IMG/VR virus record: IMGVR_UViG_3300018018_000003
Coordinates: 1,959 to 65,958 of that record
Source: a virus
Taxonomy: Duplodnaviria; Caudoviricetes
Length of the DNA stretch: 64,000 nt
Direction: 5' to 3' (one strand)
The notes under the pieces were generated by a model, which searched no databases, was not told where the DNA came from, and worked only from the letters and a program-made list of their open reading frames with translations. Below, piece after piece: positions 8,400-25,602 of the stretch. The position numbers were made by a program, and so were the translations under genes. The first letter of the stretch is position 1. Each line of letters begins with the position of its first letter.

Positions 8400-11300
8400 T
8401 TAAGGGTTCTCTGATTCGGCTTTTTTATTACGGAACGTAGCACTTGCTATATTGGTTGCCTGTTCCTCGGCTTGTCGTGCCATTTCCTTGAGCAGATTTG
8501 TTTCTTTGGGTTCTTCATCGGTAAGAGTCATGCCTCTCTGCCATGTCTGTTTCTTGGCTTTCTCAAATGCCTCTTTTGTGAGCCCTCCAGGGACAAATCC
8601 CTTTAACATATTGAGATAGTTCGTCCAATAGATGTTGGCATAGCGTTCCTTATCCTCTGCGGTCAGTGGCTTCTGTAAGTAATAATCGGGCACTTTCGGG
8701 GCTTTGAGAACTTGGTTGTTCTTTAATAGCATATATTCTTCCGGATATTTCTTTTGGAACTCCACACCATTAAGCACATTAAACCTCCTTGTCATGCCCT
8801 CTCTCATCTTTGTACCATTCTCTTTTATGAAAGGGTCATCGGGATTCCACTTGCTATACATCATCGTAAGGCTGTCTATCTCTTGATTTACGGGTATCAT
8901 CTCTTTAAGCGAGTGATTTATCTCACTTGCCCTTACCCTGTCTGCAGCCTTCTCTATTCGTGTCAGGGCATCACCTGTGGCACCGTTTTCTATTGCTCTT
9001 TGAACTGTCCTGTTATAATCTCCCTCGGCATCACCCATGCTTTTTGCAAGATCGGCATATTCGCCTACGGTATATTCAAGCTGTCTCTCCATGTGAGCCT
9101 TTAACTCCGGATCATTAAACTGCTGTACTTTGATGACATTATTAAGGAGTGACTGTATTATAGTCCTCTTCCTGCCGTAATAATCAAGTTTCCCCGTCAT
9201 CGCATCGTAAATATCCTCTCCTGACCGGAAGAAAGGCACCTGACTCCTTGCCGCATAATGAAGGACATTTATAATTCTACTCCATGTACTTGGATTAGGG
9301 TCTCGCCATTTATTTGATGTTGGATTTGATATTGACTGATTGCGGAAGTCCCTGTCTGCAAGAACCGCTGATCCTACAAATCCCCATGTAGCATCACCAA
9401 ATACTGCGGTTGGAAACAGTTTACTTTTATCTTTCTTTTGAAACTGAAAGGGCAGGAATTTGCTTAAATCGGATAGTGTAGCACTATTATCCTCGCCTAC
9501 ATAGTTATACATAGGGCTCAGGTATCTTGCGGCATTTACCTCCGATTTACCCACCTTGAAACTTAATGGTATGGATAGTCCAAATGGAAGGCTTATCTGC
9601 GGAGTGCCTTTCCTGTGCTCCCTCTCTTTCTTTTGTTCCGGTGTCTCCCCTGACATATAGCTGAATGTAGCCCCTATGGCGCTTATAAGGGCGAGATTGC
9701 CTATCGTGGTAAGCGGGTTCATTGTTATGCCATTGAGCATTATCCTCTGCATGTCTGCCTGGAACTTGACGAATGTGGGGCCTATAAGTGGAGTCTTTGA
9801 TGCCACGTCCCATAGCTTACCTATGTGTGCATAGTTACGGAACGAGTCATAAACCCTCCTCACAGCCTGATCATGTGTCAATCCCTGCTTCCTGCAAATC
9901 AAATAAGCCGCTCCCTTGACATTATTCTCCACATCAATATAATTCTGCCCTGCGAGCTTCTGTCCCCTGTTAAACAGCGTCCTTGCCTTGTCTATGAGGG
10001 TCTGATCACCCGTGAGGGTCTGATACATACTTGTCTTCTTTGCAAAGTCCGGTATCTTCTCCCCTGTCACTCCCGACTCCAATAACACTCCGGATTTCTC
10101 CACTGCCTTATACAGAGCCGTCCTGTTCTTTGCTTCTTTCTTCCAGTTCTCTTTCTCTACAAGTATCTCCAAGGGATTAAAGCCATTGATGGCACCAAAG
10201 AAATGCGATCCTGTATAGTTGCCTGTCTGGACAAAAGGATTAAGGCTTGTCCTCCATGCCCTGTAAAACTGATTAAACTTCTGCCTGTTATATACCTTAA
10301 AGGCATCGTACCACGTGTTTGCTGCGGTATTGGCAAAATGAAATCCTGTGAAGTCCTCCACTATGCTATGAAGGACTGCCTTATTTCTAAATGGACCCCA
10401 TTTTCGGAAGTTGCCAAGTAAATCAAATCCTTTCGGCACATCTTCTCCCGGCTTCAGAGTCCTGACAAAATTAGGATGATTGTCAACTATGGAGTTCATA
10501 TATTTTATACGAGCATCATTCTGAATAGTCTGTCTTACCCTTAATGCCGTAAGATAGGCAGGATCTTTTATTGCATGTTCCTGCATAGCCTCATTGACCT
10601 CCTGACGAGCCTTGTATATCCCTGTGATGATACCATTATCGCCAGTCTGTGTCAATGCCCTCATCTCTGCCGTAAGCCTATCTTCATCTTCCTGCAGGTG
10701 GGTGTCATATTCCCTTCCGAGATACTGGACTTCTCCGGTATTAGGGTCTTTGAACTTCATATAGGTCTTCGCATCAATAAATCCATTGGCGAAGGTCGTC
10801 TCATGCACCCATGTGTTCCAGTCCCTCACTGCCCAATAGAGGTTCTTCTCGGAGTTAGATAGATCGCCATATTTCTTTGGCTTTGTGGATAACTCGGGGT
10901 CAAGGACATCAAAGACATTCTCCAATGATTCCTCACTTCCTCCCACTATATCCCTGAGGTTATTCATAAGCCACTGGCTCTCATTACGGGCAAATATACC
11001 CGATGTACCTCTCATCTCCAATTCCCCCACCTGTACTTTCTTTCCCGACTCATCCGTACCAAAGGTGTCTTTCTGCGTCCTTGCAAGTCCCCTGTATGCC
11101 ATCTCTGCGAACTTAGCAAGATTCCTTATTGCATTATTCTGCGATTCGAGTCCTGCCTGAAGCCTGTTTGCAATGGCATCACTTACTTTATCCCTCAATG
11201 GAGCAAAGAGATGCTTCCATAAGACTGTATTGCCCTTGCTTATCACATCAGGAGGCAATATCCGCATCTGTAGCTTATCATCCTCGTCTTTAAGATTCTT

Positions 11301-14300
11301 ATCCGACTCATCGGCATTGGAGTTGAATTTCTTGCTTACATTCCTTGCATTGGTATCGGCTTTCCTTCTGAGGTCATCTTCCCAATTCCTGACTTTCTCA
11401 AGTAACTGTTTATGCTCATCAGGTGTGAGTTTCTTATCTATGAAGTCCTGCTGGACATCATCAATGTCTGTGTAATACTTGCCATTGAACTCCACTCCCT
11501 GATCTGCTATAGGCTTCTCTGCTGGTTTTTCTTCTGGGAATAGGTTCTGTTGCTTTTTGACTTCCCCTATCTTAGAATCTCTTTCCTTGGTTAAATCAGC
11601 AATCTCCTTGGTTAATTGTGCCGCCCTCTCATCAAACTTCTTCCCCACCGCATCAATGGTTTCAGGAGTTACCTTAAATCCCTGTTCTCCCGGCTTAATA
11701 AGATCACTTGGTTTAGCATTAGGGTCTCCGAATATCTGATTCCTGCTATCAGCCTCAAGTTTGGCTTTTTTCTTCTGGTCGGGAATCTTGTCAAGTTCCT
11801 CCTGCCTTCCCTTTATCTGATTGTTATAATATTCATATATTACTGCTACTTTTTTTTGTTGTTCTTTTGTGTATTTGGGCTTTTTTGGAGGTTTTTCAGC
11901 ACCTTCTGTTTCAGCTCCTCCTTCTCCTTTAGGAGTGCCTGCAGGTATGTTATCTTCTGGCTTCTTGCCTTCTGTATCAGTTGGTTTTGGAATCTCTGTT
12001 TCATCCTTCTCTGTTTTAGGTTTTTCTTCTGTCTTAGGCGGTTCTTCTTCTCCAAGGCTATTCCCATGCTTGCCGTCTCTCATAGTGCCATCAGGGAACA
12101 TCGTGGCTTCTTTCTCCGGCCCATCGGCTGTCTCCTTATAAGTAAAATGGAATCCTTCATCGGTGACATCAATACTTAATACATCCCCTCCATTTGGCTT
12201 TAACTGTTCATCATAGAATCTCCTGAGAGGTATCTCCATCTTATTGGACTGTTCATGTGCCGATCCCTGTGCGGATGAATAGAGAAGTCCTTTCTTCTCG
12301 ACTTTATATTCCTCCCATATCTCATGTGCGGCGACAAACTTCTTATATTCATCGTCCACGTTATTTGCTACATGAATATCTCCATGAGGATTCCATTCAG
12401 GATAGACGGCGCTATTGCCTCCTTCCGTCCAGTTGGAATAGAAATGAGTCTTCATGTAACTGTCATCAACGCCAATGACATTACGCCCATTTTGATTCCA
12501 TAAGGGTGTATCGGGGATATTATCAATATCTTCTGATGTAAACTCCTGATCGGCTATACCGAACCGTATCTTTACGCTTTCAGGAGTGTCTTTGTCTCCT
12601 TTGTCCCAGAGTCTTGCGCTTGGCTTTTCTGCTGCTCCTGATACTTCTTCTTTCGGCTTTTCTTTTTCTTGTGGTTTTGTCTTAAATGAATCCACCATCT
12701 TATCTCTTGCTTCAATCACCGCATTCTCATCACTACCTGCTTTGACTGCAAAAGAAGCATCCTTGCCATCTACTTTGACATTATACATATCAAGGGCATC
12801 ACTGCCATCCGGCTCATTCCCCTCCTGCTTACCTACATATTCAATGTTATTCTTTTTGGCTATTTCTTCTGGAGACTGTTCTGTTTTTGGGATTTCAGTT
12901 TTGGCCTTAGGCTCTTTTGTTGTCTTGGGTTCTATCTTGCTTACATCAGCCTTGAACTTGCCCCATTCGGGATGAGCCTCTGCAGCATTGGCTACCTGAT
13001 CACTCAGTCTTTTATTCTTGCCCGTACTTGCCTTGATGAGATTTTCTTGGAAGGTCTTCTTGTCCCAGTCCTCCCATTCTTCCTTCGGAGGCGTCTCAGC
13101 CTTCTCTTTCTCGGCCTTGGCTTTCTCCTCGGCTTCCTTTGCTTCTTTTGCCTTTTGAGCCTCTTTCTCTGCGTCCTCGGCAATCTTATTCAAATCCCTC
13201 TCTTTATTTTCAGGTTTCAGCTCATTATAGTCATCCACAGACTTTGAGAATATCTTCTCTGCATTCTTTTTCTCCTCATTGATCTTATTCTCCAATCCTG
13301 CCACCTTAGCTTCTTTCTCCGTAGGATTTAAGGATTCATCGTTTTTAGCGTCATTAAGCTCGTTTTGCATACGGTCAATGTTCTCCACCACCGGAGCTGC
13401 CTCCTTTCGCCTGGGGTCGTTTTCCTTGATTGTAGTGCGGAATTTATCAGTCCATATCTTCTTTTCTCTTGCAGATAATACAGGACTGTCGTTTATGCTC
13501 TTTAAGAAGGCATCGGGGTTTCTTAAAACAGACTGAGTGACAAAATTTATGTTAATGGCGTTGTCCACCACATTCTTTTGTGCTATGAGCTGTGATTTTT
13601 TATCAGGGTCTTTCTCATTCTGAATATCCATAAACAGCTTCATGGACTCTTCTCTTGCCTTCACAGGGTCAATATTCATTGAGTTGACCAGCCGGATATT
13701 ATTATCCGTGGCGGTCATATAACTGAGCATAGCCCTTTTTGTGAGAACATCCTTGACGGCTTCTGGCGTATCGAGCATCCCAAAAGTAAATCCCTGCATC
13801 ATCCCTTGGGCAAAACTGCCTCCTTGTGCCTTTTCCAATCCCCCAAAGCCAAGTGAGTTTGCCAATAGCTTTACTCCATGTGTTGTCCATACTCCGGCAC
13901 CCATGTCCTTTGCAAGTTGTCCTGCCTCACCGGATAATATGCCAAGACTATTAAATAATAATCCTTGCTCTACTTGTGCCCCACTCTGACCGACAATCTC
14001 TTTTACAGGCTTACCTTCTTTCATCCCTTCCGCATAACTTTTTAATCCAAGGTATGCAGGGAATTTAAGCATATTCTCCAATCCGTATTTAACCAATAAA
14101 GGAGCTTTTGCCTCAGGGAAGAGACTCATGGAGAATAAATCCGGAAGGAACTCACCCGTGGCTTCCAATGACTTCCCAAACTCATCATGCGGTGTCTCTC
14201 CTGTCTTTTCGGCTAATGTCTTATCCAAGAAGTCGGCAGTCCTTTCATATCCCTCTTTCATCAGGCTTGCAGTATTGCCTCCATATAAACCATTATCAAT

Positions 14301-14987
14301 AGATTCTGCAACTGCCCTTGAGTATTTCTTTAAGGTAGTATCGCCCGTTATCGCTGCTTGTGCCTTGACTCCCAATTCAAGGCTCTCAACCTTTAATTCT
14401 TTCGGATAATCAACTGCCAGATAGCCTATGTCCCTTACAAGGTTTGCAACACCCTTATAAACGCCTTTTGAGACGGCTCCTATATAAGATTCTTCCGGTT
14501 GTGGATGAGTGACTGGTATCTTATCTTCCTGCGGTATATTTATACCCGTAGTGGATACGGGCATATCCTCTCCCTTATATTGTTTGTTTTCAATATCCTT
14601 TAATGACGGCTCTCCCTTGGGTGCCATACCCTCGGGTAAATCAAGCCCTAATGTCTTTGCGTTATTGTCTTTATGAGGATTCCGACCTATCTGATCTTCC
14701 GGAATAGTGCCACTAACTTTTGATAAAACCTTTGAAAAGGCTTCTGATGTAGGCAAGCCATAATCGGTAGCATCTTTTTTTTTTAATCCGAGAGTATGGG
14801 AGAAGCTCTCATAGGTATCGGGAGTATCAAATTTATTCGCCTTGAGATAGTCGTAATACTTATGAGCATTCCCCTCATCAGATAATGTCTTTTGAAACGA
14901 TTCAAAGTTATCCGGCACATCAGCCTTTGCTGACTTCAGATAGTCGTAATACTTCTGAAGATTAGTATTGTCGCTTGTTACTGCCAT
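8400..14987 (-). CDS. large internal virion/ejection protein (2195 aa, polyvalent type)
   Basis: last gene of the tail module; Gly/Ala-rich hydrophobic segment, K/E/P-rich linkers, internal HExxE domain, helical C-terminal region. Confidence 0.7.
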   Translation of the reverse strand: MAVTSDNTNLQKYYDYLKSAKADVPDNFESFQKTLSDEGNAHKYYDYLKANKFDTPDTYESFSHTLGLKKKDATDYGLPTSEAFSKVLSKVSGTIPEDQIGRNPHKDNNAKTLGLDLPEGMAPKGEPSLKDIENKQYKGEDMPVSTTGINIPQEDKIPVTHPQPEESYIGAVSKGVYKGVANLVRDIGYLAVDYPKELKVESLELGVKAQAAITGDTTLKKYSRAVAESIDNGLYGGNTASLMKEGYERTADFLDKTLAEKTGETPHDEFGKSLEATGEFLPDLFSMSLFPEAKAPLLVKYGLENMLKFPAYLGLKSYAEGMKEGKPVKEIVGQSGAQVEQGLLFNSLGILSGEAGQLAKDMGAGVWTTHGVKLLANSLGFGGLEKAQGGSFAQGMMQGFTFGMLDTPEAVKDVLTKRAMLSYMTATDNNIRLVNSMNIDPVKAREESMKLFMDIQNEKDPDKKSQLIAQKNVVDNAININFVTQSVLRNPDAFLKSINDSPVLSAREKKIWTDKFRTTIKENDPRRKEAAPVVENIDRMQNELNDAKNDESLNPTEKEAKVAGLENKINEEKKNAEKIFSKSVDDYNELKPENKERDLNKIAEDAEKEAQKAKEAKEAEEKAKAEKEKAETPPKEEWEDWDKKTFQENLIKASTGKNKRLSDQVANAAEAHPEWGKFKADVSKIEPKTTKEPKAKTEIPKTEQSPEEIAKKNNIEYVGKQEGNEPDGSDALDMYNVKVDGKDASFAVKAGSDENAVIEARDKMVDSFKTKPQEKEKPKEEVSGAAEKPSARLWDKGDKDTPESVKIRFGIADQEFTSEDIDNIPDTPLWNQNGRNVIGVDDSYMKTHFYSNWTEGGNSAVYPEWNPHGDIHVANNVDDEYKKFVAAHEIWEEYKVEKKGLLYSSAQGSAHEQSNKMEIPLRRFYDEQLKPNGGDVLSIDVTDEGFHFTYKETADGPEKEATMFPDGTMRDGKHGNSLGEEEPPKTEEKPKTEKDETEIPKPTDTEGKKPEDNIPAGTPKGEGGAETEGAEKPPKKPKYTKEQQKKVAVIYEYYNNQIKGRQEELDKIPDQKKKAKLEADSRNQIFGDPNAKPSDLIKPGEQGFKVTPETIDAVGKKFDERAAQLTKEIADLTKERDSKIGEVKKQQNLFPEEKPAEKPIADQGVEFNGKYYTDIDDVQQDFIDKKLTPDEHKQLLEKVRNWEDDLRRKADTNARNVSKKFNSNADESDKNLKDEDDKLQMRILPPDVISKGNTVLWKHLFAPLRDKVSDAIANRLQAGLESQNNAIRNLAKFAEMAYRGLARTQKDTFGTDESGKKVQVGELEMRGTSGIFARNESQWLMNNLRDIVGGSEESLENVFDVLDPELSTKPKKYGDLSNSEKNLYWAVRDWNTWVHETTFANGFIDAKTYMKFKDPNTGEVQYLGREYDTHLQEDEDRLTAEMRALTQTGDNGIITGIYKARQEVNEAMQEHAIKDPAYLTALRVRQTIQNDARIKYMNSIVDNHPNFVRTLKPGEDVPKGFDLLGNFRKWGPFRNKAVLHSIVEDFTGFHFANTAANTWYDAFKVYNRQKFNQFYRAWRTSLNPFVQTGNYTGSHFFGAINGFNPLEILVEKENWKKEAKNRTALYKAVEKSGVLLESGVTGEKIPDFAKKTSMYQTLTGDQTLIDKARTLFNRGQKLAGQNYIDVENNVKGAAYLICRKQGLTHDQAVRRVYDSFRNYAHIGKLWDVASKTPLIGPTFVKFQADMQRIMLNGITMNPLTTIGNLALISAIGATFSYMSGETPEQKKEREHRKGTPQISLPFGLSIPLSFKVGKSEVNAARYLSPMYNYVGEDNSATLSDLSKFLPFQFQKKDKSKLFPTAVFGDATWGFVGSAVLADRDFRNQSISNPTSNKWRDPNPSTWSRIINVLHYAARSQVPFFRSGEDIYDAMTGKLDYYGRKRTIIQSLLNNVIKVQQFNDPELKAHMERQLEYTVGEYADLAKSMGDAEGDYNRTVQRAIENGATGDALTRIEKAADRVRASEINHSLKEMIPVNQEIDSLTMMYSKWNPDDPFIKENGTKMREGMTRRFNVLNGVEFQKKYPEEYMLLKNNQVLKAPKVPDYYLQKPLTAEDKERYANIYWTNYLNMLKGFVPGGLTKEAFEKAKKQTWQRGMTLTDEEPKETNLLKEMARQAEEQATNIASATFRNKKAESENP

Positions 14988-17062: not shown

Positions 17063-20038
17063 TTAAACATTTCTTTCTGATGGTGTTGAAAAGATGACTA
17101 CCGAATCAATCCTTACCTTATCCGTATGTTCCTCGGTATGGAACTTGAGATAACAATACCTTCCTCTCATGTCCCTACCGTTTAACTTGGCATCAAAGAC
17201 ACTTGAGAAGACTCCCGGGGTGTTAATGTCTTTCATTATCTGTCCGAAATAAACTCCCTCCCTCTGCTCAAAGACAGGTATATTTGTCTGCATGAGCTGA
17301 TGGCTCTCTGCCACCTGTTGAGGTATATAGACATATTCATCAAGGCTCTCCAATAGATGATCCGTAAATAATCCTACTGCGTTAAATACCTTATTCTTCT
17401 GCGGTTCTATATTAGATACCACTTCCAGTTCGGCATCTGTCGGTATGCCTGACCATGATAAGTAATCCTGTCCTTCGTCACTATTCATAACCCATAATGT
17501 CTGATGATATAAATGTGCGAAGAAATTTCCTAAATGAACATAGCTTTCCGTTATTTGATCTATCTCGGAGACAAACCTGCCCGTGGCTTCGCTGAATATT
17601 ATCCCCTTGACATTCCCATTCATATTGAATGTGATCCATACCTCTTCATGCTCATTGTTTATCCCTATGCGCACCTGAAGAATGCTTGCCCCTCCCGATG
17701 ATCTTATCCATATAAGGAGGTCTTTGAACCACCTCGACATCCTGTATTCCGGTCCTGATAATACTTTCTGACCATTGGGATCTGACCGTATAAGCATTCC
17801 TTCATTGCAGTCATAGTAATATAAGTTGCGGTTATTGGCTACTATGCTATCGGGATGCTGACAGCCATAGTTATCATCCATGGGACGCATCACCCCTAAA
17901 AACGCATCTGTAAGCGTAAATTGAGACGTTCCATCGGGATTAAAGGTCTGTACCCTGTTTACATAGATGCTCGTCTCCTTGTGCTCCTGAATGACTTTTA
18001 AGACATATCCTACCTCTCTCAATCCTGTTATTATCCCGTCTTTTTCCGGAAGGTCACGGAAATCCACATCAACAAAATGGGCAATATTATTAGTTGTGGT
18101 GCCGGTTAATAGGAATCCTCCGTTACGAATCCTCTCATCCAACTGAACCTGTTTTAATGTGAGGTCATATATGAAGGGGAACCCGCATGATGTCAGTTTG
18201 TTGTCAATGACCTGACCTACCCACCAGTCACTCGGGAATATGCTTTCTGCCCAGAATGGCTGAACACTGCCCGTATTAACACCTCCTGCAAAACTATAGT
18301 TAAGACGTGAGAACTTCCAGCAGTCATTGGCAGTATTATAGACTTGTGCGGGCGTTACTAATACCCCCGCAGCATTGAATACCTGATTTACATTTCCTGT
18401 ATGATATAAGTTGCCATTACTGTCTGTGGCTATATCAAATACCATACCGCAACCATAAGCTATCACCTGTCCTAATCCTTTCTTTGGACGATAGAGTTCT
18501 ACGATTACGTTCATGGGTGAAGGGAAATCCACTCCCGCTACATGTGCAGTAAAGATAATCGAATTGCCCGAATAAGTAAGGTCGATGCCAAGTGCTGATA
18601 ATGCCGATATGTTCCCGGCAGTGGTGGCGAAGTTCTTTGCTGTCTGCGCCAATCCTGATGCATCCCATGTAACCGTTGCCTCATACGTCCCACAGCATAT
18701 CGTTGCCGTTCCAGTTGTTCCTGTAAGTGTTAGCGTATCAACCCTTGCAGTAGGGGTGGCAGGATCATTGGGTGTTGTATGAACTACCGTTCCTGATAAG
18801 TCACCCGTAAGATTAGTTATTGCCGTTGTCCCGAGGTCGAGATCGTGCGGATGGCTCTTTGCCTGAAAGATAAGATAATCACCGGTTGTGACACTGCCGT
18901 CTTCCGTGCTTGTACCCTCCACTTCATAATCATAAAGGATGGAATATTTCGTAATTACACCTGTACCTGCATTTATCGTGCCAATAAGCCTTATCCTGTC
19001 CCCTAACTGCCATACATAAGCACCTGTCTGCCATCTGTTATTTTGAAGATACGTCCATGCAAAAGTATCATTGACATCAAGAGAATACCTATCCACACCA
19101 TAATTAAGATGCCACACTCCGCTCTCCCTTATCTGCATGAAATAATCCATTGAGTTATTGCCAAAATAGACTATCTCGTATGTCTTTGCCCATGAAGGAG
19201 GCTGATGGCTTATACTGAATGTGAGATTGACAATAGAACTGAGAAGGATGCTTGCTCCATTAGGCTCAGTATAAAATGGTATATAGACCGCATCAAAAGG
19301 CATCACTGAACACTGTCTCCCTGACCGATCTTTATATACTATCCCGAAGCTATGCGATGATCCGCATTTAAGGTCGGGATATTTATTTGCAAAGCCATAG
19401 CGTAAATAATAGGCACTGTAAGTAAATCCCGAATAGACCGTATTGACATCTCCTGCCACCCATTTCGGTTCACATCCGTATTGTGCGTTTTCCGGGTACA
19501 TCAAAATCTGATTTGGCACTGCCGTTGTTTGTAAGACAAAGCCATTTGTTGTCATACTGGCTATGAGTCCATTCTTTAAATCCAACCCCACATCCCCCGC
19601 CTTGACTTCATACGATGCTGTCCTGCTTGTGATTCCTTTGGATGGACATGCTATCGTCACATAATACCAATCATTTGCTATGGGATAATCAGGCAGTGTA
19701 AGTATTAAGAGTCCATAGACGGTTCTCTCTGTCGTATTTGATGATGGATTTGACCAATAATCAGTATGATCCATGAAAGGTATTATGGGAAGATTAGTCT
19801 GTCCCCCTGCCGCAGATACATCCTGATATGTTATTGCAGATGTTATATTGGGCTGTATGACATCCTCTCCTTCAGTTATCTGTCCAAACACAAGGGCATT
19901 GCCTCCCACTACCTCCATACGACCTGCCTTAATAGGTATATAGGTAAAGGGTTCAGCCATGATGTTCACATCCATGACTGCCGATACCTTGTCGTTATAG
20001 AAGGTACGAATAATGTCCGTGTTGTTTGGATATATCAT
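17063..20038 (-). CDS. tail stabilisation (nozzle/muzzle) protein, C-terminal piece
   Basis: TFYND...P..A...E..GN.LVFG...EG, LK.G..H.FGIVY.D..GR, YGCQHP.S, KVFNA, REG.YF, NG..MRG.Y as recalled from crAss-like tail stabilisation proteins. Confidence 0.75.
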   Translation of the reverse strand: MIYPNNTDIIRTFYNDKVSAVMDVNIMAEPFTYIPIKAGRMEVVGGNALVFGQITEGEDVIQPNITSAITYQDVSAAGGQTNLPIIPFMDHTDYWSNPSSNTTERTVYGLLILTLPDYPIANDWYYVTIACPSKGITSRTASYEVKAGDVGLDLKNGLIASMTTNGFVLQTTAVPNQILMYPENAQYGCEPKWVAGDVNTVYSGFTYSAYYLRYGFANKYPDLKCGSSHSFGIVYKDRSGRQCSVMPFDAVYIPFYTEPNGASILLSSIVNLTFSISHQPPSWAKTYEIVYFGNNSMDYFMQIRESGVWHLNYGVDRYSLDVNDTFAWTYLQNNRWQTGAYVWQLGDRIRLIGTINAGTGVITKYSILYDYEVEGTSTEDGSVTTGDYLIFQAKSHPHDLDLGTTAITNLTGDLSGTVVHTTPNDPATPTARVDTLTLTGTTGTATICCGTYEATVTWDASGLAQTAKNFATTAGNISALSALGIDLTYSGNSIIFTAHVAGVDFPSPMNVIVELYRPKKGLGQVIAYGCGMVFDIATDSNGNLYHTGNVNQVFNAAGVLVTPAQVYNTANDCWKFSRLNYSFAGGVNTGSVQPFWAESIFPSDWWVGQVIDNKLTSCGFPFIYDLTLKQVQLDERIRNGGFLLTGTTTNNIAHFVDVDFRDLPEKDGIITGLREVGYVLKVIQEHKETSIYVNRVQTFNPDGTSQFTLTDAFLGVMRPMDDNYGCQHPDSIVANNRNLYYYDCNEGMLIRSDPNGQKVLSGPEYRMSRWFKDLLIWIRSSGGASILQVRIGINNEHEEVWITFNMNGNVKGIIFSEATGRFVSEIDQITESYVHLGNFFAHLYHQTLWVMNSDEGQDYLSWSGIPTDAELEVVSNIEPQKNKVFNAVGLFTDHLLESLDEYVYIPQQVAESHQLMQTNIPVFEQREGVYFGQIMKDINTPGVFSSVFDAKLNGRDMRGRYCYLKFHTEEHTDKVRIDSVVIFSTPSERNV

Positions 20039-20039
20039 A

Positions 20040-20477
20040 TTAAGTTAAATAGATTATCCCAAGGGCATTCCACTGAATGAGGCTTGTGCCGTTATTCACT
20101 ACCTGGTCTGTAAGGAAGTCAATGATTGCCCGTAGCTTATATGTTGACTGTCCTGTGCCTCCTGTAGTCGTATAAAAAGCCCCATAGCGATAGTCAATGC
20201 TCGAATTGGGGCCTATCGAGACATCTTGCGCATCGAGAAAATAGTTATTGCCATCGGCATTGGATGACAGACCGTTCATCAATATCCCTCCTGCCTTATA
20301 AGCGCCCGGAGTACCGCTATCGGTGATCTCATAAGCCACCACATCCGAGACATAATGTTGTGTTGCCGGATTAGGGGTGAATGAGTTATTAAGGAGCATG
20401 AGATACCATACTTCACCCGTCCACCCATCGGTGATCTCTTTCTTTACGTATTTCGGAATACAACTTAGATTTGCCAT
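20040..20477 (-). CDS. small virion/tail-associated protein inserted between tail stabilisation pieces
   Basis: MLL...FTP.....Y.SDV...EI.....Y.AGG..., IDF..DQ...NG...IQWNA.GI, a widespread phage structural family. Confidence 0.6.
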   Translation of the reverse strand: MANLSCIPKYVKKEITDGWTGEVWYLMLLNNSFTPNPATQHYVSDVVAYEITDSGTPGAYKAGGILMNGLSSNADGNNYFLDAQDVSIGPNSSIDYRYGAFYTTTGGTGQSTYKLRAIIDFLTDQVVNNGTSLIQWNALGIIYLT

Positions 20478-20488
20478 AATATTATTTT

Positions 20489-22228
20489 TTAAACTAAAGG
20501 TCCTACATAAACTATGATATAATCTCCGGAGGCAACTTGCCGTGACATCGTTACCGTCCTGCTATTTGAATACTGATTTAATAAGTCTGAAAGCGTTCCC
20601 GTCCCTGATGCTACTCCATTGGCATATATATAATAGGGCGTGCTGAATACTACCTTTGGACCGTAAAGAACATCATCAGGAGTGAATGTAACCGTTATGC
20701 TCGCTGATCCCATCGTGGCTACTCCCGAAGTATTGGAAACGGAAATCAAGTCAGGACTTCCTGCCTCTATGACAAGGGTGGGTGGTATGACCGGTGCTAA
20801 CTGAGATACTGCTATATAAATGGTATCCCCCAACGAATCCTTCAAGACAACCGTCCCGCTTCTTAAAACCCCTGTATTTGCCGATGCGGGAGTAATCATA
20901 AGCGTCTGTGCGTTGTATATCGTATCCCCTGCCTTCATTGATCCATGGTAAGGCACATTGGATATTGTTATCCATGATGGGAATGACACAAGCGTTCCCT
21001 CTGTCGTGCCTCCTACTATCGTCAATACCGTCTCTGTCCCGCTATAAGAACTATCCGGCCACTGCATAGAATTGACACTTGCAGATATATAGGCATTTGT
21101 CACTCCTATTGATGGGAAGCTGAATGCGAATCCCGTATCTCCCGGGTTGACTATTGTGCCATTCTCCATATCCGGCTGTGGGAATGAGAAGCTGATTGTC
21201 AATACCGGAGCTATGATATTCTGAGATATGGCACCAGCATTCTCCTGTTCGCTGAACTTATCAATGGTGTCAATAAGAAACCATTTGGAGGGATCGCTAC
21301 TGCTCCGTACCACCACCTCTATCTGCCTCACCTCCTCGCCTCCTGTATTAAGCGTTATCTCCAAGGCATTATTAAGCGATGTCATCTCATTGGCAAGCCC
21401 TGTAGCCACCTCTTCCTCGCCATTAGGCATGGCAAGTATGCTCGCAGGAGAGAACGTGCTTCTTCTCCAATCCATATAGACATACCTGTAGGCTATCTGA
21501 AAGAGCGTCTGCCTGAGGTTATTCACCTGTCGGTTGTTATCTGAGAAATACTGCACTACCGGAGGATGCTTGGGAGGCATGGCTTCAAAGTAGAAATTCT
21601 CAATATTCATCGAATAATAAGCGTCTTCTATCATGCAGAGTGGCGGTATGCCCCAATGCGTCCCGTCATCCGTCCGTGGTTCATATCCTACATTATTATA
21701 AACAAGGCTCTTATAGAAGTAATTGCCATTGGACACAATCTGTCCAAGGCTATAACTACTTGTCGCATTCCATTCCGTAGTATTCGGGAAAGCGCCATAG
21801 CCTATCTTATATGTAAACGAGTTCTTTGCCCTCTTAATATCCATCTGGTATATGGGGTTCACATTATCCGTCCATACAAGCCTCCCAAATACCACCTTCG
21901 GATTGTAAATCTTATGATTCGGGTCAAAGCCTATGTTATTATACTTGTCGTAATAGACTACCGACTGCACCCTGTTATCAACATTTATCTCAATGATCCA
22001 GGCAGAGCCGAAATAAGTATCAATATAAAAGACATATATGCACCGTGTAAGGGGATCAACACAGTTACCGCACAGAAGGACATTGGTTATATAAGATGGC
22101 TGTAATGGGTTGACGGTACCAATATCTTTAAGAAGCCGTACAGACAGACAGTCATTCTTTGGGGCAAAATCTATCGTTGCCTGTGCGGTGTTATATCCAA
22201 GAGATAATATCTTAGCTGAATTGCTCAT
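20489..22228 (-). CDS. tail stabilisation protein, middle piece (Fib_succ C-terminal strands, CBM-like insert, Ig-like tail)
   Basis: G...D.....IY.F, L.WTDN.NP, NNLR..LFQ.AYRYVY.D...STFSP.S, NTG.EEV..IE; N-terminal SVRLLKD; C-terminal BACON/Ig-like segment. Confidence 0.7.
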   Translation of the reverse strand: MSNSAKILSLGYNTAQATIDFAPKNDCLSVRLLKDIGTVNPLQPSYITNVLLCGNCVDPLTRCIYVFYIDTYFGSAWIIEINVDNRVQSVVYYDKYNNIGFDPNHKIYNPKVVFGRLVWTDNVNPIYQMDIKRAKNSFTYKIGYGAFPNTTEWNATSSYSLGQIVSNGNYFYKSLVYNNVGYEPRTDDGTHWGIPPLCMIEDAYYSMNIENFYFEAMPPKHPPVVQYFSDNNRQVNNLRQTLFQIAYRYVYMDWRRSTFSPASILAMPNGEEEVATGLANEMTSLNNALEITLNTGGEEVRQIEVVVRSSSDPSKWFLIDTIDKFSEQENAGAISQNIIAPVLTISFSFPQPDMENGTIVNPGDTGFAFSFPSIGVTNAYISASVNSMQWPDSSYSGTETVLTIVGGTTEGTLVSFPSWITISNVPYHGSMKAGDTIYNAQTLMITPASANTGVLRSGTVVLKDSLGDTIYIAVSQLAPVIPPTLVIEAGSPDLISVSNTSGVATMGSASITVTFTPDDVLYGPKVVFSTPYYIYANGVASGTGTLSDLLNQYSNSRTVTMSRQVASGDYIIVYVGPLV

Positions 22229-23316
22229 ATTATCAAATTAACACAAATCCGTGCCGCACTTGATGTCTCCCCTGCTTGCCCTATTATCGCTGTCGTATTT
22301 GCCGATCCGGTACCTACGGCTGTCCCTGTTGTTCCTATTGCGACATTTGTTATATTGCTCCATGCAGATGATACTGACTGGTCTGATGGTGCGCATTCAA
22401 GATACTGGTTGCCATTTTTATAGAATATATATCCTCCTGCTGGTCCAACATCCTGTAAGTCATAACTGAATATTGAGGTGAATGAATGTATTGCCCTTAC
22501 ATAAAACTGATAACTCTTGGTCTGTACACTCTGGGCTCCCGAACCGAAATTCTGATACCATGCTGAGATGGCTACAGATTCCGAAGAAGTCCAATATGTG
22601 TTTTGTGAAAAGTTTCCAAGCCCATTCAGATAAAGGACGGAATACATAAGAGCTAATTCATCTTTTGATGGCAGGTACCAATTATTAAAAGTGTTTTCAT
22701 CTTTTAGCCAAAATAATCCATTTGCTCCAAGTAGTTCATATATTGTATCATATATCCCTCCCGGCAATGCCCTGAAGCCATAGTTGTCATCGGCTCCTGT
22801 ATTAGGATCATTCCAGTGGTCATCGCCTACCTCTTTCAGATGTCCTCCGGCTATCATCTGTCCTCCAAGGAATGTCAATAGAATGTTAATCTCCGCCTCT
22901 GTAGGCACATGCCATCCCTCCGGACAGAAATCCACTGACATGATCTGATTCCATGAGTAAAGACCTCCGTATATAGCCCTGTTGTCTTCATCGTCATTAT
23001 AGACTCTGCTCCCGGGATAAGCGTTATCCCAGTTCCTCTTCATCCACGTCTGAGATCCAATCGTCACTTCTTCCCAGCCCTCGTATAGGAATGCGCCACC
23101 GATAGCTGCACCGTAATATGTTATCTCTGCGCTTACATTTAACAAAACAGGGACTTCTCCCTGTAGCGTCTCAAGAACCCCTGCCCCATGTTGTTCACTG
23201 CTACTTGCGGTGCGCACATTTTTGGCAAAGGTAAACTCCCCCTCCTGAAGGAACTGAGGGTCTTGATCACTGTTTAGACCTAAAAATAATTTCTTTATAT
23301 CTCTAAGAGTTGCCAT
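22225..23316 (-). CDS. tail stabilisation protein, N-terminal piece fused to Fib_succ_major and DUF1566-like modules
   Basis: GLNSD.DP..L.EGE...A.NVR N-terminus; VTIGSQTWM..N, YGGLYSW, CPEGWHVPT, GF.ALPGG; WYLPSKDEL, YWTSSE, VRAI.SF, GPAGG.IFY. Confidence 0.75.
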   Translation of the reverse strand: MATLRDIKKLFLGLNSDQDPQFLQEGEFTFAKNVRTASSSEQHGAGVLETLQGEVPVLLNVSAEITYYGAAIGGAFLYEGWEEVTIGSQTWMKRNWDNAYPGSRVYNDDEDNRAIYGGLYSWNQIMSVDFCPEGWHVPTEAEINILLTFLGGQMIAGGHLKEVGDDHWNDPNTGADDNYGFRALPGGIYDTIYELLGANGLFWLKDENTFNNWYLPSKDELALMYSVLYLNGLGNFSQNTYWTSSESVAISAWYQNFGSGAQSVQTKSYQFYVRAIHSFTSIFSYDLQDVGPAGGYIFYKNGNQYLECAPSDQSVSSAWSNITNVAIGTTGTAVGTGSANTTAIIGQAGETSSAARICVNLII

Positions 23317-23319
23317 ATA

Positions 23320-24126
23320 TTAACGTTTTGGCGACTGTCTGTAACTGCCCCAAAGAGCTCTTTTCAGTTCATCGGCTGTGAAACTGTTCTGAAATGCCCT
23401 TAGTTCTGCCACTGCCTCTTCGTGATCTTTCTTCCGTCTCTCAATCTCCGAATAAGCCATCTTAACCGCAGTCCTGCCGGTAAGGAACCCAAGCATATCA
23501 CCCGAGATCATCTGCCACTCCACATACGTCCTGAGTGCAGGAACGGCTTCCCTTGGCACTAATGAACTACCATCAAGTTTTACGCCTGAACTCAGATACT
23601 CTAAAACTATACCTGTTCGCGGTATATGACCCGAGAACACTATCTGTCTCCTCTCCCTGTCTATGCGGTAATATGAACTATCAATACCTCCTGGTAAGCC
23701 AAATAATCCGCCCACGTACTGCCCATTTCTAAAGTGTGAACTGAAAAATATGGCATCCGGAATACCATGAAAATGGTCATTGTCCGCATTGCCCACTTCA
23801 AGTCCGGTGTCATCGTACGTCCGAGGTAGCAATAGATTATCATGCCTTGTTATCACCCGTAGCTTGCCGTTAATCGGAATGCCAATGCGGACATAATCTA
23901 TAAAATCTGCAGGCAGAGGAACTGTTTTGGCAAGTGACATGTGCAAATATACGACCTGTAATCCCGCATCCATGTTATACATATTTAATTCAGTAAACCC
24001 CTCTAACGCTATCTGTGTCAATCGTTTATAATCTTTCATCGAGTAATTAGATAACCTATTTAATATGGACATAATTACGTAACGAATTGTCACAAATCCT
24101 TCGGTGTTGGGTAATGCATTTGACAT
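23320..24126 (-). CDS. tail tubular/ring protein
   Basis: LP.DFIDYVRIG, Y.ID.E...I.FS, IVLEY.S.G, A..ALR.Y..W; directly upstream of the tail stabilisation gene. Confidence 0.7.
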   Translation of the reverse strand: MSNALPNTEGFVTIRYVIMSILNRLSNYSMKDYKRLTQIALEGFTELNMYNMDAGLQVVYLHMSLAKTVPLPADFIDYVRIGIPINGKLRVITRHDNLLLPRTYDDTGLEVGNADNDHFHGIPDAIFFSSHFRNGQYVGGLFGLPGGIDSSYYRIDRERRQIVFSGHIPRTGIVLEYLSSGVKLDGSSLVPREAVPALRTYVEWQMISGDMLGFLTGRTAVKMAYSEIERRKKDHEEAVAELRAFQNSFTADELKRALWGSYRQSPKR

Positions 24127-24947
24127 TATGCTATTTTTTTAATTTGATTATTTATTTCTTTTTTTCTCATAATGCTCTGTTTCTGAGCAATACTTAATTT
24201 TCTTTTATGTTCATCAGAAAACGGCTTCCCTTTATGCACAAGGCTTAATTTCTTTTTTGTTTCAGAATTTGCCCTTTTTCCAAGATGTGATAATCTGTTT
24301 TTCAATTTTGATTCCGCAGAGTGTTTTCTGCCATACATGGGATTATTTGCGCCAGTAATGTCTCTTTTTATATGTTCTTTTATTATTTTTTCTTTTGGAA
24401 ATGGATGTTCTCGGGCATATCTTAATCTCTTTGTTAAACTAATTTTCAATTTAGTTTCTTCTGAATGTCTATGGCCTAATAGATATTTATTCCCCTTAGA
24501 CGCAAGGCCTATTTTACGTTTATGCTCTTCAGAAAATATTCGTCCTTTTAAGGAATCAGAAATGTTTTTTCTGGCTTCTGCGGATCTTGGCGATTGTTTT
24601 TTACCTTTAAGTGCTTGGCTGATTTTTATTTTAGTTTCCTCTGAAAGTTTACTGCCCAAGGTATTGCCTGCAATTTTACAGGTATTAAAATAAGGATTTA
24701 ATCTATCAAGATAATATTGTTCCCTAGCGAGTAATCCAACTGGAAAGCATGGCTCGATAATAGAAAAAATCAAGTCATTTCTTCCGTATTTATTATAATG
24801 TCTTTGAAGTTTTTTAGAACAATGAACTCCCTTTTTTAAATTACAAAAATGCGTAGCCTTTCTTGTTTTTAAATCAATAGCACTCCCAATATAAATCCGT
24901 TCAGGATGCATAATGCTTTGAATTTTATATATACCCGATCTTTTCAT
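24126..24947 (-). CDS. free-standing GIY-YIG homing endonuclease with NUMOD3 repeats
   Basis: SGIYKI...RIYIGSA, REQYY.D...P.FN, repeated HSEE.K.KIS motifs, G.NNPMYG.KHS; AT-rich; start moved to MKRSGIY. Confidence 0.9.
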   Translation of the reverse strand: MKRSGIYKIQSIMHPERIYIGSAIDLKTRKATHFCNLKKGVHCSKKLQRHYNKYGRNDLIFSIIEPCFPVGLLAREQYYLDRLNPYFNTCKIAGNTLGSKLSEETKIKISQALKGKKQSPRSAEARKNISDSLKGRIFSEEHKRKIGLASKGNKYLLGHRHSEETKLKISLTKRLRYAREHPFPKEKIIKEHIKRDITGANNPMYGRKHSAESKLKNRLSHLGKRANSETKKKLSLVHKGKPFSDEHKRKLSIAQKQSIMRKKEINNQIKKIA

Positions 24948-24948
24948 T

Positions 24949-25602
24949 TTACGTTGTGGGTTCTGAATCAATAGTCGGATCAGGCTTTGGCTTATGCATC
25001 ATAATGTCAATCACTCTCTGGACGATATTATCTTCCATTCCAGACGGCATAGCCACCTCATCGTAGTCTCCCATCTGTTCCATGGGTACAATCATAAGTA
25101 CGTCCACAGACGTTATTTCATCCGGAGCCACTGGTAGCTTGTCAAATTTGAGTATATGGCTCGGCTCGCCATCCCCTGTGAATAGATTACTCTGTTCAAG
25201 CCTGTAAGTAGGAGTATCATCCATAGTATCCACTTCGAGCTCTGCAAACACCACATTGGCTCCTGACTCTATCGGTGCAAAGACATTGGTGTTATCCGCA
25301 TTATTACACACCTGTCTTATACCATTGTCATCGGGTAATTGTACCGGAGTAAAAGGCAGGAATGCATAAGCCGATGTCCCTGACTGATTAAGAACATCAA
25401 TGGTATATGTTCGGCTCCATGCATCAAGCTGGCTGAAGTCACTCTCCCTCTTCCCCCTCTCCCATGTCTCATAGATTATCTGGCGGAATACGTTTCGCAG
25501 ATGACCAATGATGACCCCGGGATGATAAACGGCCTTCTGATCCCCTACAATGTCATTTGCAAAGAAGTCCTGAACCAGGTCTACTATCTCTATCACCTTC
25601 AT
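24949..25602 (-). CDS. putative head-tail ring/adaptor protein
   Basis: position in the tail module; LP..PVQLP...GI..V. Confidence 0.55.
   Translation of the reverse strand: MKVIEIVDLVQDFFANDIVGDQKAVYHPGVIIGHLRNVFRQIIYETWERGKRESDFSQLDAWSRTYTIDVLNQSGTSAYAFLPFTPVQLPDDNGIRQVCNNADNTNVFAPIESGANVVFAELEVDTMDDTPTYRLEQSNLFTGDGEPSHILKFDKLPVAPDEITSVDVLMIVPMEQMGDYDEVAMPSGMEDNIVQRVIDIMMHKPKPDPTIDSEPTT

What the first reader, a model, noticed from the sequence alone, without database searches (positions are those of the whole stretch)
22124..23073. Circularly permuted DUF1566-like domain inserted in a loop of a Fib_succ_major domain
Seen: the Fib_succ_major domain runs to GANGLFWLKDE (ends 22696) and resumes only in the next ORF as SNSAKILSLGYN...SVRLLKD. 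The 468 bp between encode WYLPSKDEL...YWTSSE...VRAIHSF first and GPAGGYIFY...YLECAP...G.G..NT...AARIC second. Established (from recall): this C-type-lectin-fold family normally has GPAGG...AA..C first, then DWYLPS...VRAIR.F. Joining the insert end (ICVNLII) to its start (NTFNNWYLPS) restores the usual sequence. Inference: the module arrived as an opened circle, or as an out-of-register piece of a tandem array. The host domain must fold from two polypeptides.
Basis: partly seen in the sequence, partly recalled or inferred. Interest (0 to 1): 0.8.

Follow-up and report, generated by a model that had tools for sequence, protein, structure and literature searches.

The report
Split phage lectin domain with cargo
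Two neighbouring phage virion genes each encode part of one sugar-binding-type domain, with a rearranged second domain wedged between the parts, and about a hundred related phages share this layout, which looks like a socket for swapping host-recognition modules.

Summary
On the minus strand, ORF1 (22225..23316, 363 aa) carries a Fib_succ_major domain that stops at position 136 of a 169-position profile. A 156-aa module follows, then the stop codon. ORF2 (20489..22228) starts in an ATGA overlap, and its residues 3-36 supply profile positions 135-168.

The module is a true circular permutant of canonical Lcl_C/DUF1566 modules. It gives two swapped hits natively and one end-to-end hit after re-permutation. 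On its own it is predicted to fold as one compact domain (pLDDT 95).

The permuted module is a widespread ready-made cassette. The genome holds no second copy and no reverse transcriptase. Contigs from 4 of 4 runs are identical, with no joints.

The larger finding is family-wide:
- 104 of 115 ORF2 relatives begin with the missing strands.
- 46 of 46 adaptor-bearing ORF1 relatives have the truncated domain.
- Four relatives are fused single chains with the cargo nested in the same loop.
- Near-identical relatives carry unrelated cargos there.

A complex prediction supports strand complementation (0.76 against 0.00 for the best control).

Best reading: a two-chain lectin domain that ties the virion proteins together and serves as a cargo socket. 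Binding has not been shown experimentally.

The parts
22225..23316 (-). ORF1, 363 aa: virion adaptor, then the Fib_succ_major N-part, then the permuted Lcl_C cargo, then the stop
   Evidence: ORF list. Pfam. 1787 homologues at E<=1e-3.
23074..23316 (-). ORF1 aa 1-81: N-terminal adaptor. In distant relatives it is contiguous with the body of a single ~1250-aa virion protein.
   Evidence: BLASTP: ORF1 13-59 match aa 11-57 of the 1249-aa protein of L016 (E 5e-6) and of L017 (E 1e-6).
22696..23073 (-). ORF1 aa 82-207: Fib_succ_major N-part, ending in the FWLKDE motif and lacking the last ~34 profile positions
   Evidence: Pfam profile 1-158 of 187. Local profile 3-136 of 169, 199.9 bits.
22480..22695 (-). 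ORF1 aa 208-279: first half of the cargo, which is the C-terminal two thirds of the canonical Lcl_C profile (WYLPS ... VRAIHSF)
   Evidence: Pfam Lcl_C 42-116 of 117. PDB 8q4e chain residues 96-165, E 1e-6. P0343 907-979.
22228..22479 (-). ORF1 aa 280-363: second half of the cargo (GPAGG strands and the AA..C helix), which is the N-terminal part of canonical-order modules
   Evidence: P0343 817-900, 53% identity, E 8e-21. Canonical-order HMM positions 1-76, 100.7 bits. No Pfam hit when scanned alone.
22225..22228 (-). ATGA: the ORF1 stop codon overlaps the ORF2 start codon
   Evidence: Sequence. Identical in contigs of 4 of 4 runs. In the window and 13 related loci the stop-to-start distance is -8 to +9 nt.
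22121..22222 (-). ORF2 aa 3-36: the missing C-terminal strands of the Fib_succ_major domain (ILSLGY ... SVRLLKD)
   Evidence: Local profile 135-168. HHalign probability 94.9%, E 4.7e-8. All of residues 1-35 lie in the predicted interface. S29, R31 and L32 are invariant in 31 sequences.
20489..22120 (-). ORF2 aa 37-579: body of the virion protein (possibly a propeller, then Ig/BACON-like C-terminal domains)
   Evidence: phrog_14478 positions 164-281 of 1474. Flavobacterium phage Elemovirus 1470-aa virion structural protein, E 4e-4. The fold assignment is weak.

Best explanation
ORF1 and ORF2 are two tightly coupled virion-protein genes of a complete 66-kb phage from peat and wetland metagenomes. 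The phage is distantly related to podophages of Flavobacterium and Cellulophaga.

Together the two genes encode one C-type-lectin-like Fib_succ_major domain in two polypeptides. ORF1 supplies about four fifths of it. The first ~35 residues of ORF2 supply the final strands.

At the break point, still on ORF1, sits an autonomous 156-aa cargo domain. It is a circular permutant of the Lcl_C/DUF1566 lectin-like module, so its two ends lie close together and it can be plugged into a loop.

Proposed mechanism: the N-terminal strands of ORF2 insert into the open sheet of the ORF1 lectin domain (fragment or strand complementation). This completes the lectin fold. It also ties ORF1 (virion adaptor, lectin head and cargo) non-covalently to ORF2 (the body). 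That re-creates what is one chain in four relatives and in the lectin-free ~1250-aa proteins of more distant phages.

The loop acts as a cargo socket, because close relatives carry unrelated binding modules there. A chain break after the cargo would also let cargos whose ends are far apart be carried.

Shown here: the homologies, the permutation, the family-wide conservation of the split, the fused forms and the cargo swaps.

Supported by prediction only: the two-chain fold.

Inferred: a role in host-glycan recognition, and the rationale for the break.
For: **Complementary profile coverage.**
- ORF1 matches positions 3-136 and ORF2 matches 135-168 of 169.
- HHalign gives probability 94.9%, E 4.7e-8.

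**Conservation of the split.**
- 107 of 115 ORF2 homologues carry the C-part, and 104 of them have it within the first 12 residues.
- Of the other 8, 7 are N-terminally cut fragments and 1 is the fused P0151, which has it.
- 46 of 46 adaptor-bearing ORF1 homologues stop at profile position 149 or earlier (mode 132-133). In contrast, 57 of 72 non-adaptor proteins reach 167-169.
- In the window and 13 related loci, ORF1 is immediately followed (-8 to +9 nt) by ORF2.
- S29, R31 and L32 of the ORF2 N-terminal piece are invariant in 31 sequences that are 41-61% identical overall.

**Fused single chains with the cargo nested at the same site.**
- P0151, P0226 and P0128 carry the permuted Lcl_C module.
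- P0288 carries a 275-aa insert with SxDxGxTW-type repeats.

**Complex prediction, ORF1 78-363 with ORF2 1-42.**
- Score 0.76; best of 3 controls 0.00.
- That mark was reached by 58 of 80 solved complexes and by 2 of 110 mismatched pairs.
- The runs agree in at least 94% of contacts, and the partner pLDDT is at least 82.
- ORF2 residues 6-10 pair with ORF1 200-204. ORF2 27-33 pair with ORF1 119-120 and 135-136. ORF1 residue 363 is also in the interface.

**The cargo folds alone.** AF2 gives pLDDT 95.4 and pTM 0.90.

**Cargo socket.** P0151, P0288 and P0030 are 85-90% identical over aa 1-205 but carry three unrelated cargos.

**Relation to distant relatives.**
- In L016 and L017 the adaptor and the body are contiguous, with no lectin between them.
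- In the exhaustive search, many ~1100-1400-aa representatives align only from ORF2 residue ~39-54 onward. That excludes the strand piece.
Against: - No experiment shows that the two chains bind.
- The complex prediction may succeed simply because the two pieces resemble an intact domain the model knows. The alignments were also my own, so the calibration holds only roughly.
- The score of the ORF2 piece against the profile is modest on its own (9.7-15.9 bits). Pfam does not detect the 35-aa piece alone.
- The AF2 model of the whole fused relative P0226 was poor: mean pLDDT 66, pTM 0.34, and pLDDT 25-40 in the insert. It therefore does not independently confirm the nested topology.
- No insert-free unsplit form was found that would fix the order of events.
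- The function of the lectin domains is inferred from family annotation only.
Confidence: 0.7

Rival explanations
1. The split is real, but the pieces do not reassemble. The truncated lectin domain of ORF1 works (or idles) alone, and the N-terminal 35 residues of ORF2 are a leftover with another role, or none.
For: - Binding is only predicted.
- The ORF2 piece scores weakly on its own.
- ORF1 could be held on the virion by its adaptor alone, because in distant relatives the adaptor and body are one unit.
Against: - A leftover would decay. Instead, S29, R31 and L32 are invariant, and the piece is present at the N-terminus in 104 of 115 relatives that are only 40-62% identical overall.
- The break falls at the same profile position in 46 of 46 adaptor-bearing ORF1 relatives.
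- In the model, all 35 residues are buried against the Fib_succ part, against 0.00 for the controls.
Confidence: 0.15
2. One reading: the module entered this very site as an opened circle, or as an out-of-register slice of a local tandem array. That event would have created the permutation here.
For: - Tandem arrays of the module exist in relatives (P0078, P0115, P0314).
- Duplication followed by trimming is the textbook route to a circular permutant (established knowledge, recalled).
Against: - The same permuted cassette, with the same ends, occurs in 106 of 177 core motifs of the retrieved proteins. By a crude regex and profile sort of 110 modules, 43 end a protein after a complete Fib_succ domain and 13 are nested at profile position ~20-30 of a Fib_succ domain.
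- The 64-kb window holds no second copy.
- The complete genome has one Lcl_C match.
- No joints appear in the contigs of 4 of 4 runs. Contigs cannot exclude rare circles.
Confidence: 0.05
3. A programmed frameshift or stop read-through makes a single fused ORF1-ORF2 protein, so the domain is not really built from two chains.
For: - Fused relatives show that a single chain is viable.
- In L002, L003, L004, L007 and L014 the two ORFs are in the same frame, separated by a stop and 1-3 codons.
Against: - The frame relation differs between loci: same frame in 5 of 14, and shifted in 9 of 14, including the window.
- In the window, the ORF2 frame is closed by a TAA four codons upstream of its ATG. 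By eye I saw no slippery heptamer in those 12 nt.
- The start codon and the MS.. N-terminus are conserved in position in about 100 relatives.
Confidence: 0.04
4. An assembly error or a decaying pseudogene produced the break.
For: The window comes from a metagenome-derived record.
Against: - The 1601-bp stretch is identical (0 differences, 0 gaps) in contigs of 4 of 4 runs from 2017-2020. These may be one campaign, or the source itself.
- The record is a complete genome with direct terminal repeats.
- The same break is present in about 100 relatives.
Confidence: 0.01
5. The domains are targets of a diversity-generating retroelement, and the odd layout reflects mutagenic retrohoming.
For: DUF1566 and Fib_succ_major are a recognised class of DGR variable-protein domains (PMC5758913, passages read).
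Against: - The complete genome has no RVT_1 match.
- The window holds no template-like repeat of the region.
Confidence: 0.01

Closest known systems
Fib_succ_major / TIGR02145 'FISUMP' domain (Pfam PF09603)
   Same: ORF1 aa 84-210 match well above the curated cut-off (74.2 against 33.9 bits). The ORF2 N-terminus matches the family's C-terminal SVR..KD strands.
   Different: The domain is interrupted by another domain, and its last ~34 positions are on a second polypeptide. Ordinary members, such as the P0040-type proteins, are continuous (57 of 72 non-adaptor proteins).
Lcl_C / DUF1566 (Pfam PF07603); solved example: Legionella Lcl C-terminal domain, PDB 8q4e
   Same: - The core half matches in sequence (E 1e-6 single sequence, 5.5e-11 by profile).
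- The core half also matches in predicted structure: rmsd 1.5 A over 55 columns, probability 1.0.
- The Lcl paper describes the domain as C-type-lectin-like and glycosaminoglycan-binding (PMC11162425, passages read).
   Different: - The order of the two halves is swapped. Sequential aligners therefore cover only about a third of the model (TM 0.32-0.38).
- Trimerisation and ligand are untested here.
Canonical-order GPAGG...AA..C...DWFLPS...VRA.RA. modules in relatives (P0343, P0314)
   Same: 45-53% identical to the two halves of the window's module.
   Different: The canonical order ends a protein at the VRAIRAY motif. The window's form starts at WYLPS and ends at the AA..C helix.
Large virion structural protein of Bacteroidota podophages (phrog_14478; Flavobacterium phage Elemovirus gp22, 1470 aa)
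   Same: ORF2 and the 991-aa ORF at 17063..20038 match different parts of this profile. The gene order around them is alike.
   Different: In the window's clade the protein is broken into several ORFs. A lectin block has been inserted between the adaptor and the body.
Donor-strand complementation in chaperone-usher pili, and engineered split-protein fragment complementation (recalled, not tested)
   Same: A fold that lacks its last strand(s) is completed by strands of a neighbouring polypeptide, which joins the two subunits.
   Different: There is no homology. Here the donor and acceptor are halves of a lectin domain that is one chain in relatives, and binding is only predicted.
DGR variable proteins with CLec domains (category 'd': DUF1566, DUF823, Fib_succ_major)
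   Same: The same domain families, used on phage and cell surfaces for ligand binding (PMC5758913, passages read).
   Different: There is no reverse transcriptase and no template repeat here. Variation comes from swapping whole cargo domains, not from mutagenic retrohoming.

Membership tests
Fib_succ_major (PF09603) | Score above Pfam's gathering cut-off | tested here: met
   74.2 bits against 33.9; E 2.1e-20.
Fib_succ_major (PF09603) | Profile covered end to end in one polypeptide | tested here: not met
   ORF1 covers 1-158 of 187 Pfam positions, or 3-136 of 169 in the local profile. The remainder, 135-168, is on ORF2 aa 3-36. Coverage is complete only across the two chains.
Fib_succ_major (PF09603) | The two pieces fold into one domain | tested here: inconclusive
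   Complex prediction 0.76 against a best control of 0.00. This supports binding but does not show it, and it may reflect likeness to intact domains.
Lcl_C / DUF1566 (PF07603) | Score above Pfam's gathering cut-off | tested here: met
   36.0 bits against 34.9 for the protein. The margin is small. The six-frame genome search gave 34.0 bits, just under the cut-off.
Lcl_C / DUF1566 (PF07603) | Canonical order of segments (N-part, then the WRLPT core) | tested here: not met
   - Only profile 42-116 matches natively.
- The swapped halves match P0343.
- The canonical-order HMM gives two swapped hits natively and one full hit (positions 1-168, 174.7 bits) after re-permutation in a script.
Lcl_C / DUF1566 (PF07603) | Same fold as the solved Lcl C-terminal domain | tested here: inconclusive
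   Foldseek's top hit is 8q4e (probability 1.0, rmsd 1.5 A), but over only 55 columns, with TM 0.32/0.38. That is expected for a permutant. No permutation-aware alignment was available.
DGR variable protein | Reverse transcriptase and a template repeat in the element | tested here: not met
   No RVT_1 match in the complete genome. No repeat of the region in the window.
phrog_14478 virion structural protein | Profile match | tested here: met
   ORF2: E 9.8e-14, positions 164-281 of 1474. The 991-aa ORF: E 5.1e-19, positions 966-1147. Coverage is partial because the protein is fragmented here.

The most novel reading that the evidence does not exclude
The break inside the lectin domain is not an accident that is merely tolerated. 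It is an evolved plug-and-socket system.

- The conserved flanks (the end of the Fib_succ N-part and the start of ORF2) would act as fixed recombination and docking points.
- Between them, phages of this group would exchange whole receptor-binding cargos, switching freely between fused and split states.
- The strand-complemented lectin domain would serve as the universal non-covalent joint of the tail apparatus.

This would be a natural phage counterpart of engineered split-protein docking. It would also be a new route to host-range change, distinct from tail-fibre mosaicism at N-terminal adaptors and from DGRs.
Probability: 0.35. Interest if true: 0.78.

Novelty: new variant of a known kind. 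Interest (0 to 1): 0.62.

Why it matters
Domain insertion, circular permutation and split proteins are each known. Here all three coincide in one lectin domain. The layout is also conserved across about a hundred related uncultured phages, so it is a working design and not a one-off.

If the two chains really reassemble, this is a natural case of fragment complementation used to assemble a virion. The site would also be one where receptor-binding modules are swapped between near-identical phages. That bears on how phages of Bacteroidota-like hosts change host range, and it offers a ready-made natural scaffold for plugging binding domains into a phage tail.

There is a practical warning for annotation as well. 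A Pfam scan of either gene alone gives a 'partial domain' in one and 'no domain' in the other.

Tried and rejected
- **Megablast of 20489-24200 against cultured phages:** no match.
- **tblastn of ORF1 against phages:** only a 23% partial hit in two uncultured 735-kb records.
- **The search for related loci with ORF1 alone in viral contigs:** no confirmed relative. The ORF2 alignment worked instead.
- **Pfam on short pieces alone:** no relevant hit for the GPAGG segment or for the 35-aa ORF2 piece.
- **phmmer of the GPAGG segment against the PDB:** only a designed repeat protein with weak repeated matches, judged spurious. The profile search put that segment on 8q4e residues 50-81 at 2 bits, in the expected swapped order but not significant.
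- **AF2 of the whole fused relative P0226:** poor (pLDDT 66, with the insert at 25-40). Its fold search gave only generic propeller and Ig-like matches, plus a weak crAss001 muzzle hit (TM 0.13). I use neither as evidence.
- **BFVD fold search of the cargo:** only half-domain matches to phage DUF1566 proteins.
- **RNA:** no RNA holder was listed among the sequencing runs.
- **Contigs:** the laid contigs cannot show rare excised circles.
- **A 'two chimeric domains' reading:** here the Fib N-part plus the Lcl core would be one domain, and the GPAGG part plus the Fib C-part another. I rejected it because the cargo alone folds as one compact domain and the ORF2 piece packs on the Fib N-part.
- **A paper search for 'HbP1':** it returned only an unrelated human transcription factor.
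- **Literature searches:** the terms were DUF1566/phage/tail, Fib_succ_major/FISUMP/TIGR02145/PF09603, and circular permutation/C-type lectin/domain insertion/bacteriophage. In the listings I saw no description of a split or permuted form. I did not open most of those papers, and supplements were closed.
- **PF26707:** this family is precomputed on some relatives but is not in the Pfam copy at hand, so I could not see what it covers.
Full report
**What is there**

The finding lies on the minus strand. ORF1 (22225..23316, 363 aa) and ORF2 (20489..22228, 579 aa) overlap by ATGA, which is the ORF1 stop and the ORF2 start.

Pfam finds two domains in ORF1:
- Fib_succ_major at aa 84-210, covering only profile positions 1-158 of 187 (74.2 bits, cut-off 33.9).
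- Lcl_C (formerly DUF1566) at aa 210-276, covering only positions 42-116 of 117 (36.0 bits, cut-off 34.9).

The last 84 residues of ORF1 and all of ORF2 have no Pfam domain. PHROGs calls ORF2 and the upstream gene virion structural proteins.

The window belongs to a complete 65,958-bp virus record with direct terminal repeats. The 1601-bp stretch around the finding is held by 24 peat and wetland metagenome runs. It is identical, with no joints, in the ~60-kb contigs of the 4 of 4 runs I laid. Those runs may include the source sample.

I built a profile from 40 complete Fib_succ domains found among the homologues (169 positions).
- ORF1 aa 82-212 match positions 3-136 (199.9 bits).
- ORF2 aa 3-36 match positions 135-168 (9.7 bits within the whole protein; 15.9 bits for the first 50 aa).

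A profile-profile comparison aligns columns 3-39 of the ORF2 family to the end of the Fib_succ domain, with probability 94.9% and E 4.7e-8. The two pieces are therefore complementary to within one profile position.

**The guest module is a genuine circular permutant**

The natural protein P0343 has the canonical order and ends at the VRAIRAY motif. BLASTP against it gives:
- ORF1 279-363 matching P0343 817-900 (53% identity, E 8e-21).
- ORF1 210-279 matching P0343 907-979 (45% identity, E 2e-14).

This is the swapped order.

Only the two from P0343 are cleanly canonical; the other four come from arrays. The native insert gives two swapped partial hits: HMM positions 94-168 first, then 1-76. 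The insert re-permuted inside the script gives one end-to-end hit (positions 1-168, 174.7 bits).

The only solved relative is the Legionella Lcl C-terminal domain, PDB 8q4e.
- Its last 70 residues match the first half of the module.
- The predicted cargo structure aligns to it at 1.5 A rmsd, but over only 55 columns. A sequential aligner would give this on a permutant.
- The authors describe that domain as C-type-lectin-like and glycosaminoglycan-binding (PMC11162425, passages read).

On its own, the 159-aa cargo is predicted as one compact domain (pLDDT 95.4, pTM 0.90).

**The permutation was not made here**

- The permuted layout is the usual one among retrieved relatives: 106 of 177 core motifs in 353 proteins. 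Another 11 have the canonical junction, and 60 fit neither pattern. The set is biased by my query.
- The permuted module often ends a protein right after a complete Fib_succ domain. An example is P0040. A crude regex and profile sort put 43 of 110 modules in this class.
- It is nested at other loops of Fib_succ domains in other proteins. These include P0003 and P0009 at profile position ~27 of a second domain, and P0018 at ~113.
- Tandem arrays exist (P0078, P0115), and they could have produced the permutant long ago.
- The 64-kb window has no second copy of the module. The complete genome has one Lcl_C match and no reverse transcriptase. That also removes a retroelement explanation.

**The split is a family trait**

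Of 115 ORF2 homologues, 107 carry the Fib_succ C-part.
- 104 of them have it within the first 12 residues.
- 3 have it internally, among them the fused P0226 and P0128.
- Of the remaining 8, seven are N-terminally cut fragments and one is the fused P0151, which has it.

Of 118 ORF1 homologues with a strong Fib_succ hit:
- All 46 that carry the N-terminal adaptor stop at profile position 149 or earlier (mode 132-133).
- 57 of the 72 without the adaptor have a complete domain.

In the window and 13 related viral contigs, the ORF1-like gene is followed within -8 to +9 nt by the ORF2-like gene. The frame relations vary (same frame in 5, shifted in 9), which argues against a common recoding signal. 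S29, R31 and L32 of the strand piece are invariant among 31 family members that are only 41-61% identical overall.

**Fused forms and cargo swapping**

Four relatives are single chains with the cargo nested at the same loop:
- P0151, P0226 and the N-terminally cut P0128 carry the permuted Lcl_C module.
- P0288 carries a 275-aa insert with SxDxGxTW-type repeats. I read these repeats as propeller-like from recall, without a test.

On a tree of the ORF2 body (76 rows, 331 columns, quick search), the fused forms fall in three places among split forms, which needs at least 3 changes.

P0151, P0288 and the split-type P0030 are 85-90% identical over the first 205 residues. Yet they carry three unrelated cargos: the permuted Lcl_C module, the repeat domain and a second Fib_succ domain. 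Other split relatives carry FN3 plus the module, leucine-rich repeats or longer arrays.

**Wider context**

In the more distant contigs L016 and L017, one ~1250-aa protein holds the ORF1 adaptor at aa 11-57. The ORF2 body follows from aa ~116, with no lectin in between.

The exhaustive representative search shows the same pattern:
- 27 close representatives align from ORF2 residue 1-7 to their own residue 1-8.
- Many ~1100-1400-aa proteins align only from ORF2 residue ~39-54.

Cultured distant relatives are Flavobacterium (Elemovirus), Cellulophaga and Maribacter phages, which have a single 1470-aa virion structural protein. The 991-aa ORF downstream in the window matches a later part of the same PHROG. 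So this clade has inserted a lectin block between adaptor and body and has cut the giant protein into several genes.

**How it most likely works**

The complex prediction of ORF1 78-363 with ORF2 1-42 scored 0.76 (runs 0.77, 0.76, 0.76) against 0.00 for the best of 3 controls.
- That mark was reached by 58 of 80 solved complexes and by 2 of 110 mismatched pairs.
- The runs agree in at least 94% of contacts, and the partner pLDDT is at least 82.
- All of ORF2 residues 1-35 touch the Fib_succ part. ORF2 6-10 pair with ORF1 200-204, and ORF2 27-33 pair with ORF1 119-120 and 135-136.
- The last residue of ORF1 is also in the interface, as a nested topology requires.

This supports binding but does not show it. 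The pieces are halves of a known fold, so the pass may reflect that likeness.

I read the system as a two-chain lectin domain. Completing it by the N-terminal strands of ORF2 joins the two virion proteins, and its loop is a socket for exchangeable binding cargo. A role in host-glycan recognition is inferred from the families involved. DUF1566 and Fib_succ_major domains are ligand-binding surface domains and targets of diversity-generating retroelements (PMC5758913, passages read).

**What remains open**

- The AF2 model of the whole fused P0226 was too poor in the insert to confirm nesting independently.
- No insert-free unsplit form was seen.
- Only contigs, not raw reads, could be searched for circles.
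- No RNA or protein data exist.
- My literature searches listed no description of a split or permuted form of these domains. I read only two papers, in passages, and supplements were closed.

**Verdict**

This is a new variant of known kinds of protein rearrangement. It is made interesting by its conservation and by the cargo swapping at the break.

Noticed in passing
window 24126..24971 (-): A GIY-YIG homing endonuclease with four NUMOD3 repeats sits between two virion structural genes. A similar 270-aa gene is at the same place in L003 and L014. It is shortened to 214 aa in L004, and absent from L001, L002, L005 and L006. This looks like a sporadic mobile insertion.
   Followed up: partly
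window 17063..20477 (-): The large virion protein family phrog_14478 (1474 positions) is fragmented here. ORF2 matches positions 164-281, and the 991-aa ORF at 17063..20038 matches 966-1147. A 145-aa ORF (20040..20477, phrog_644, unknown function) lies between them.
   Followed up: partly
window 8400..14987 (-): A 2195-aa ORF lies downstream of the structural block. I did not examine it.
   Followed up: no
L006 2199..3998 (protein P0018): The same permuted module is nested at a different loop of the first Fib_succ domain (profile position ~113). After the insert, a short motif resembling the N-terminal YYG.AIG linker recurs.
   Followed up: no
L010 2160..4001: Here the ORF1-like gene is itself cut into two ORFs of 283 aa and 327 aa. 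The second (P0078) is a tandem of two permuted modules, and its terminal AA..C helix motif is duplicated at the very end. P0115 ends the same way.
   Followed up: no
whole record G000: Independent contigs of the runs are 60,243-60,387 bp, whereas the record is 65,958 bp with direct terminal repeats. The ~5.6-kb difference may be a collapsed terminal repeat. I did not check this.
   Followed up: no
relatives P0054, P0072, P0094 and others: The precomputed annotation lists a family PF26707 on many Fib_succ plus Lcl_C proteins. That family is not in the Pfam copy at hand, so I could not see which part it covers. It might already describe the GPAGG segment.
   Followed up: partly
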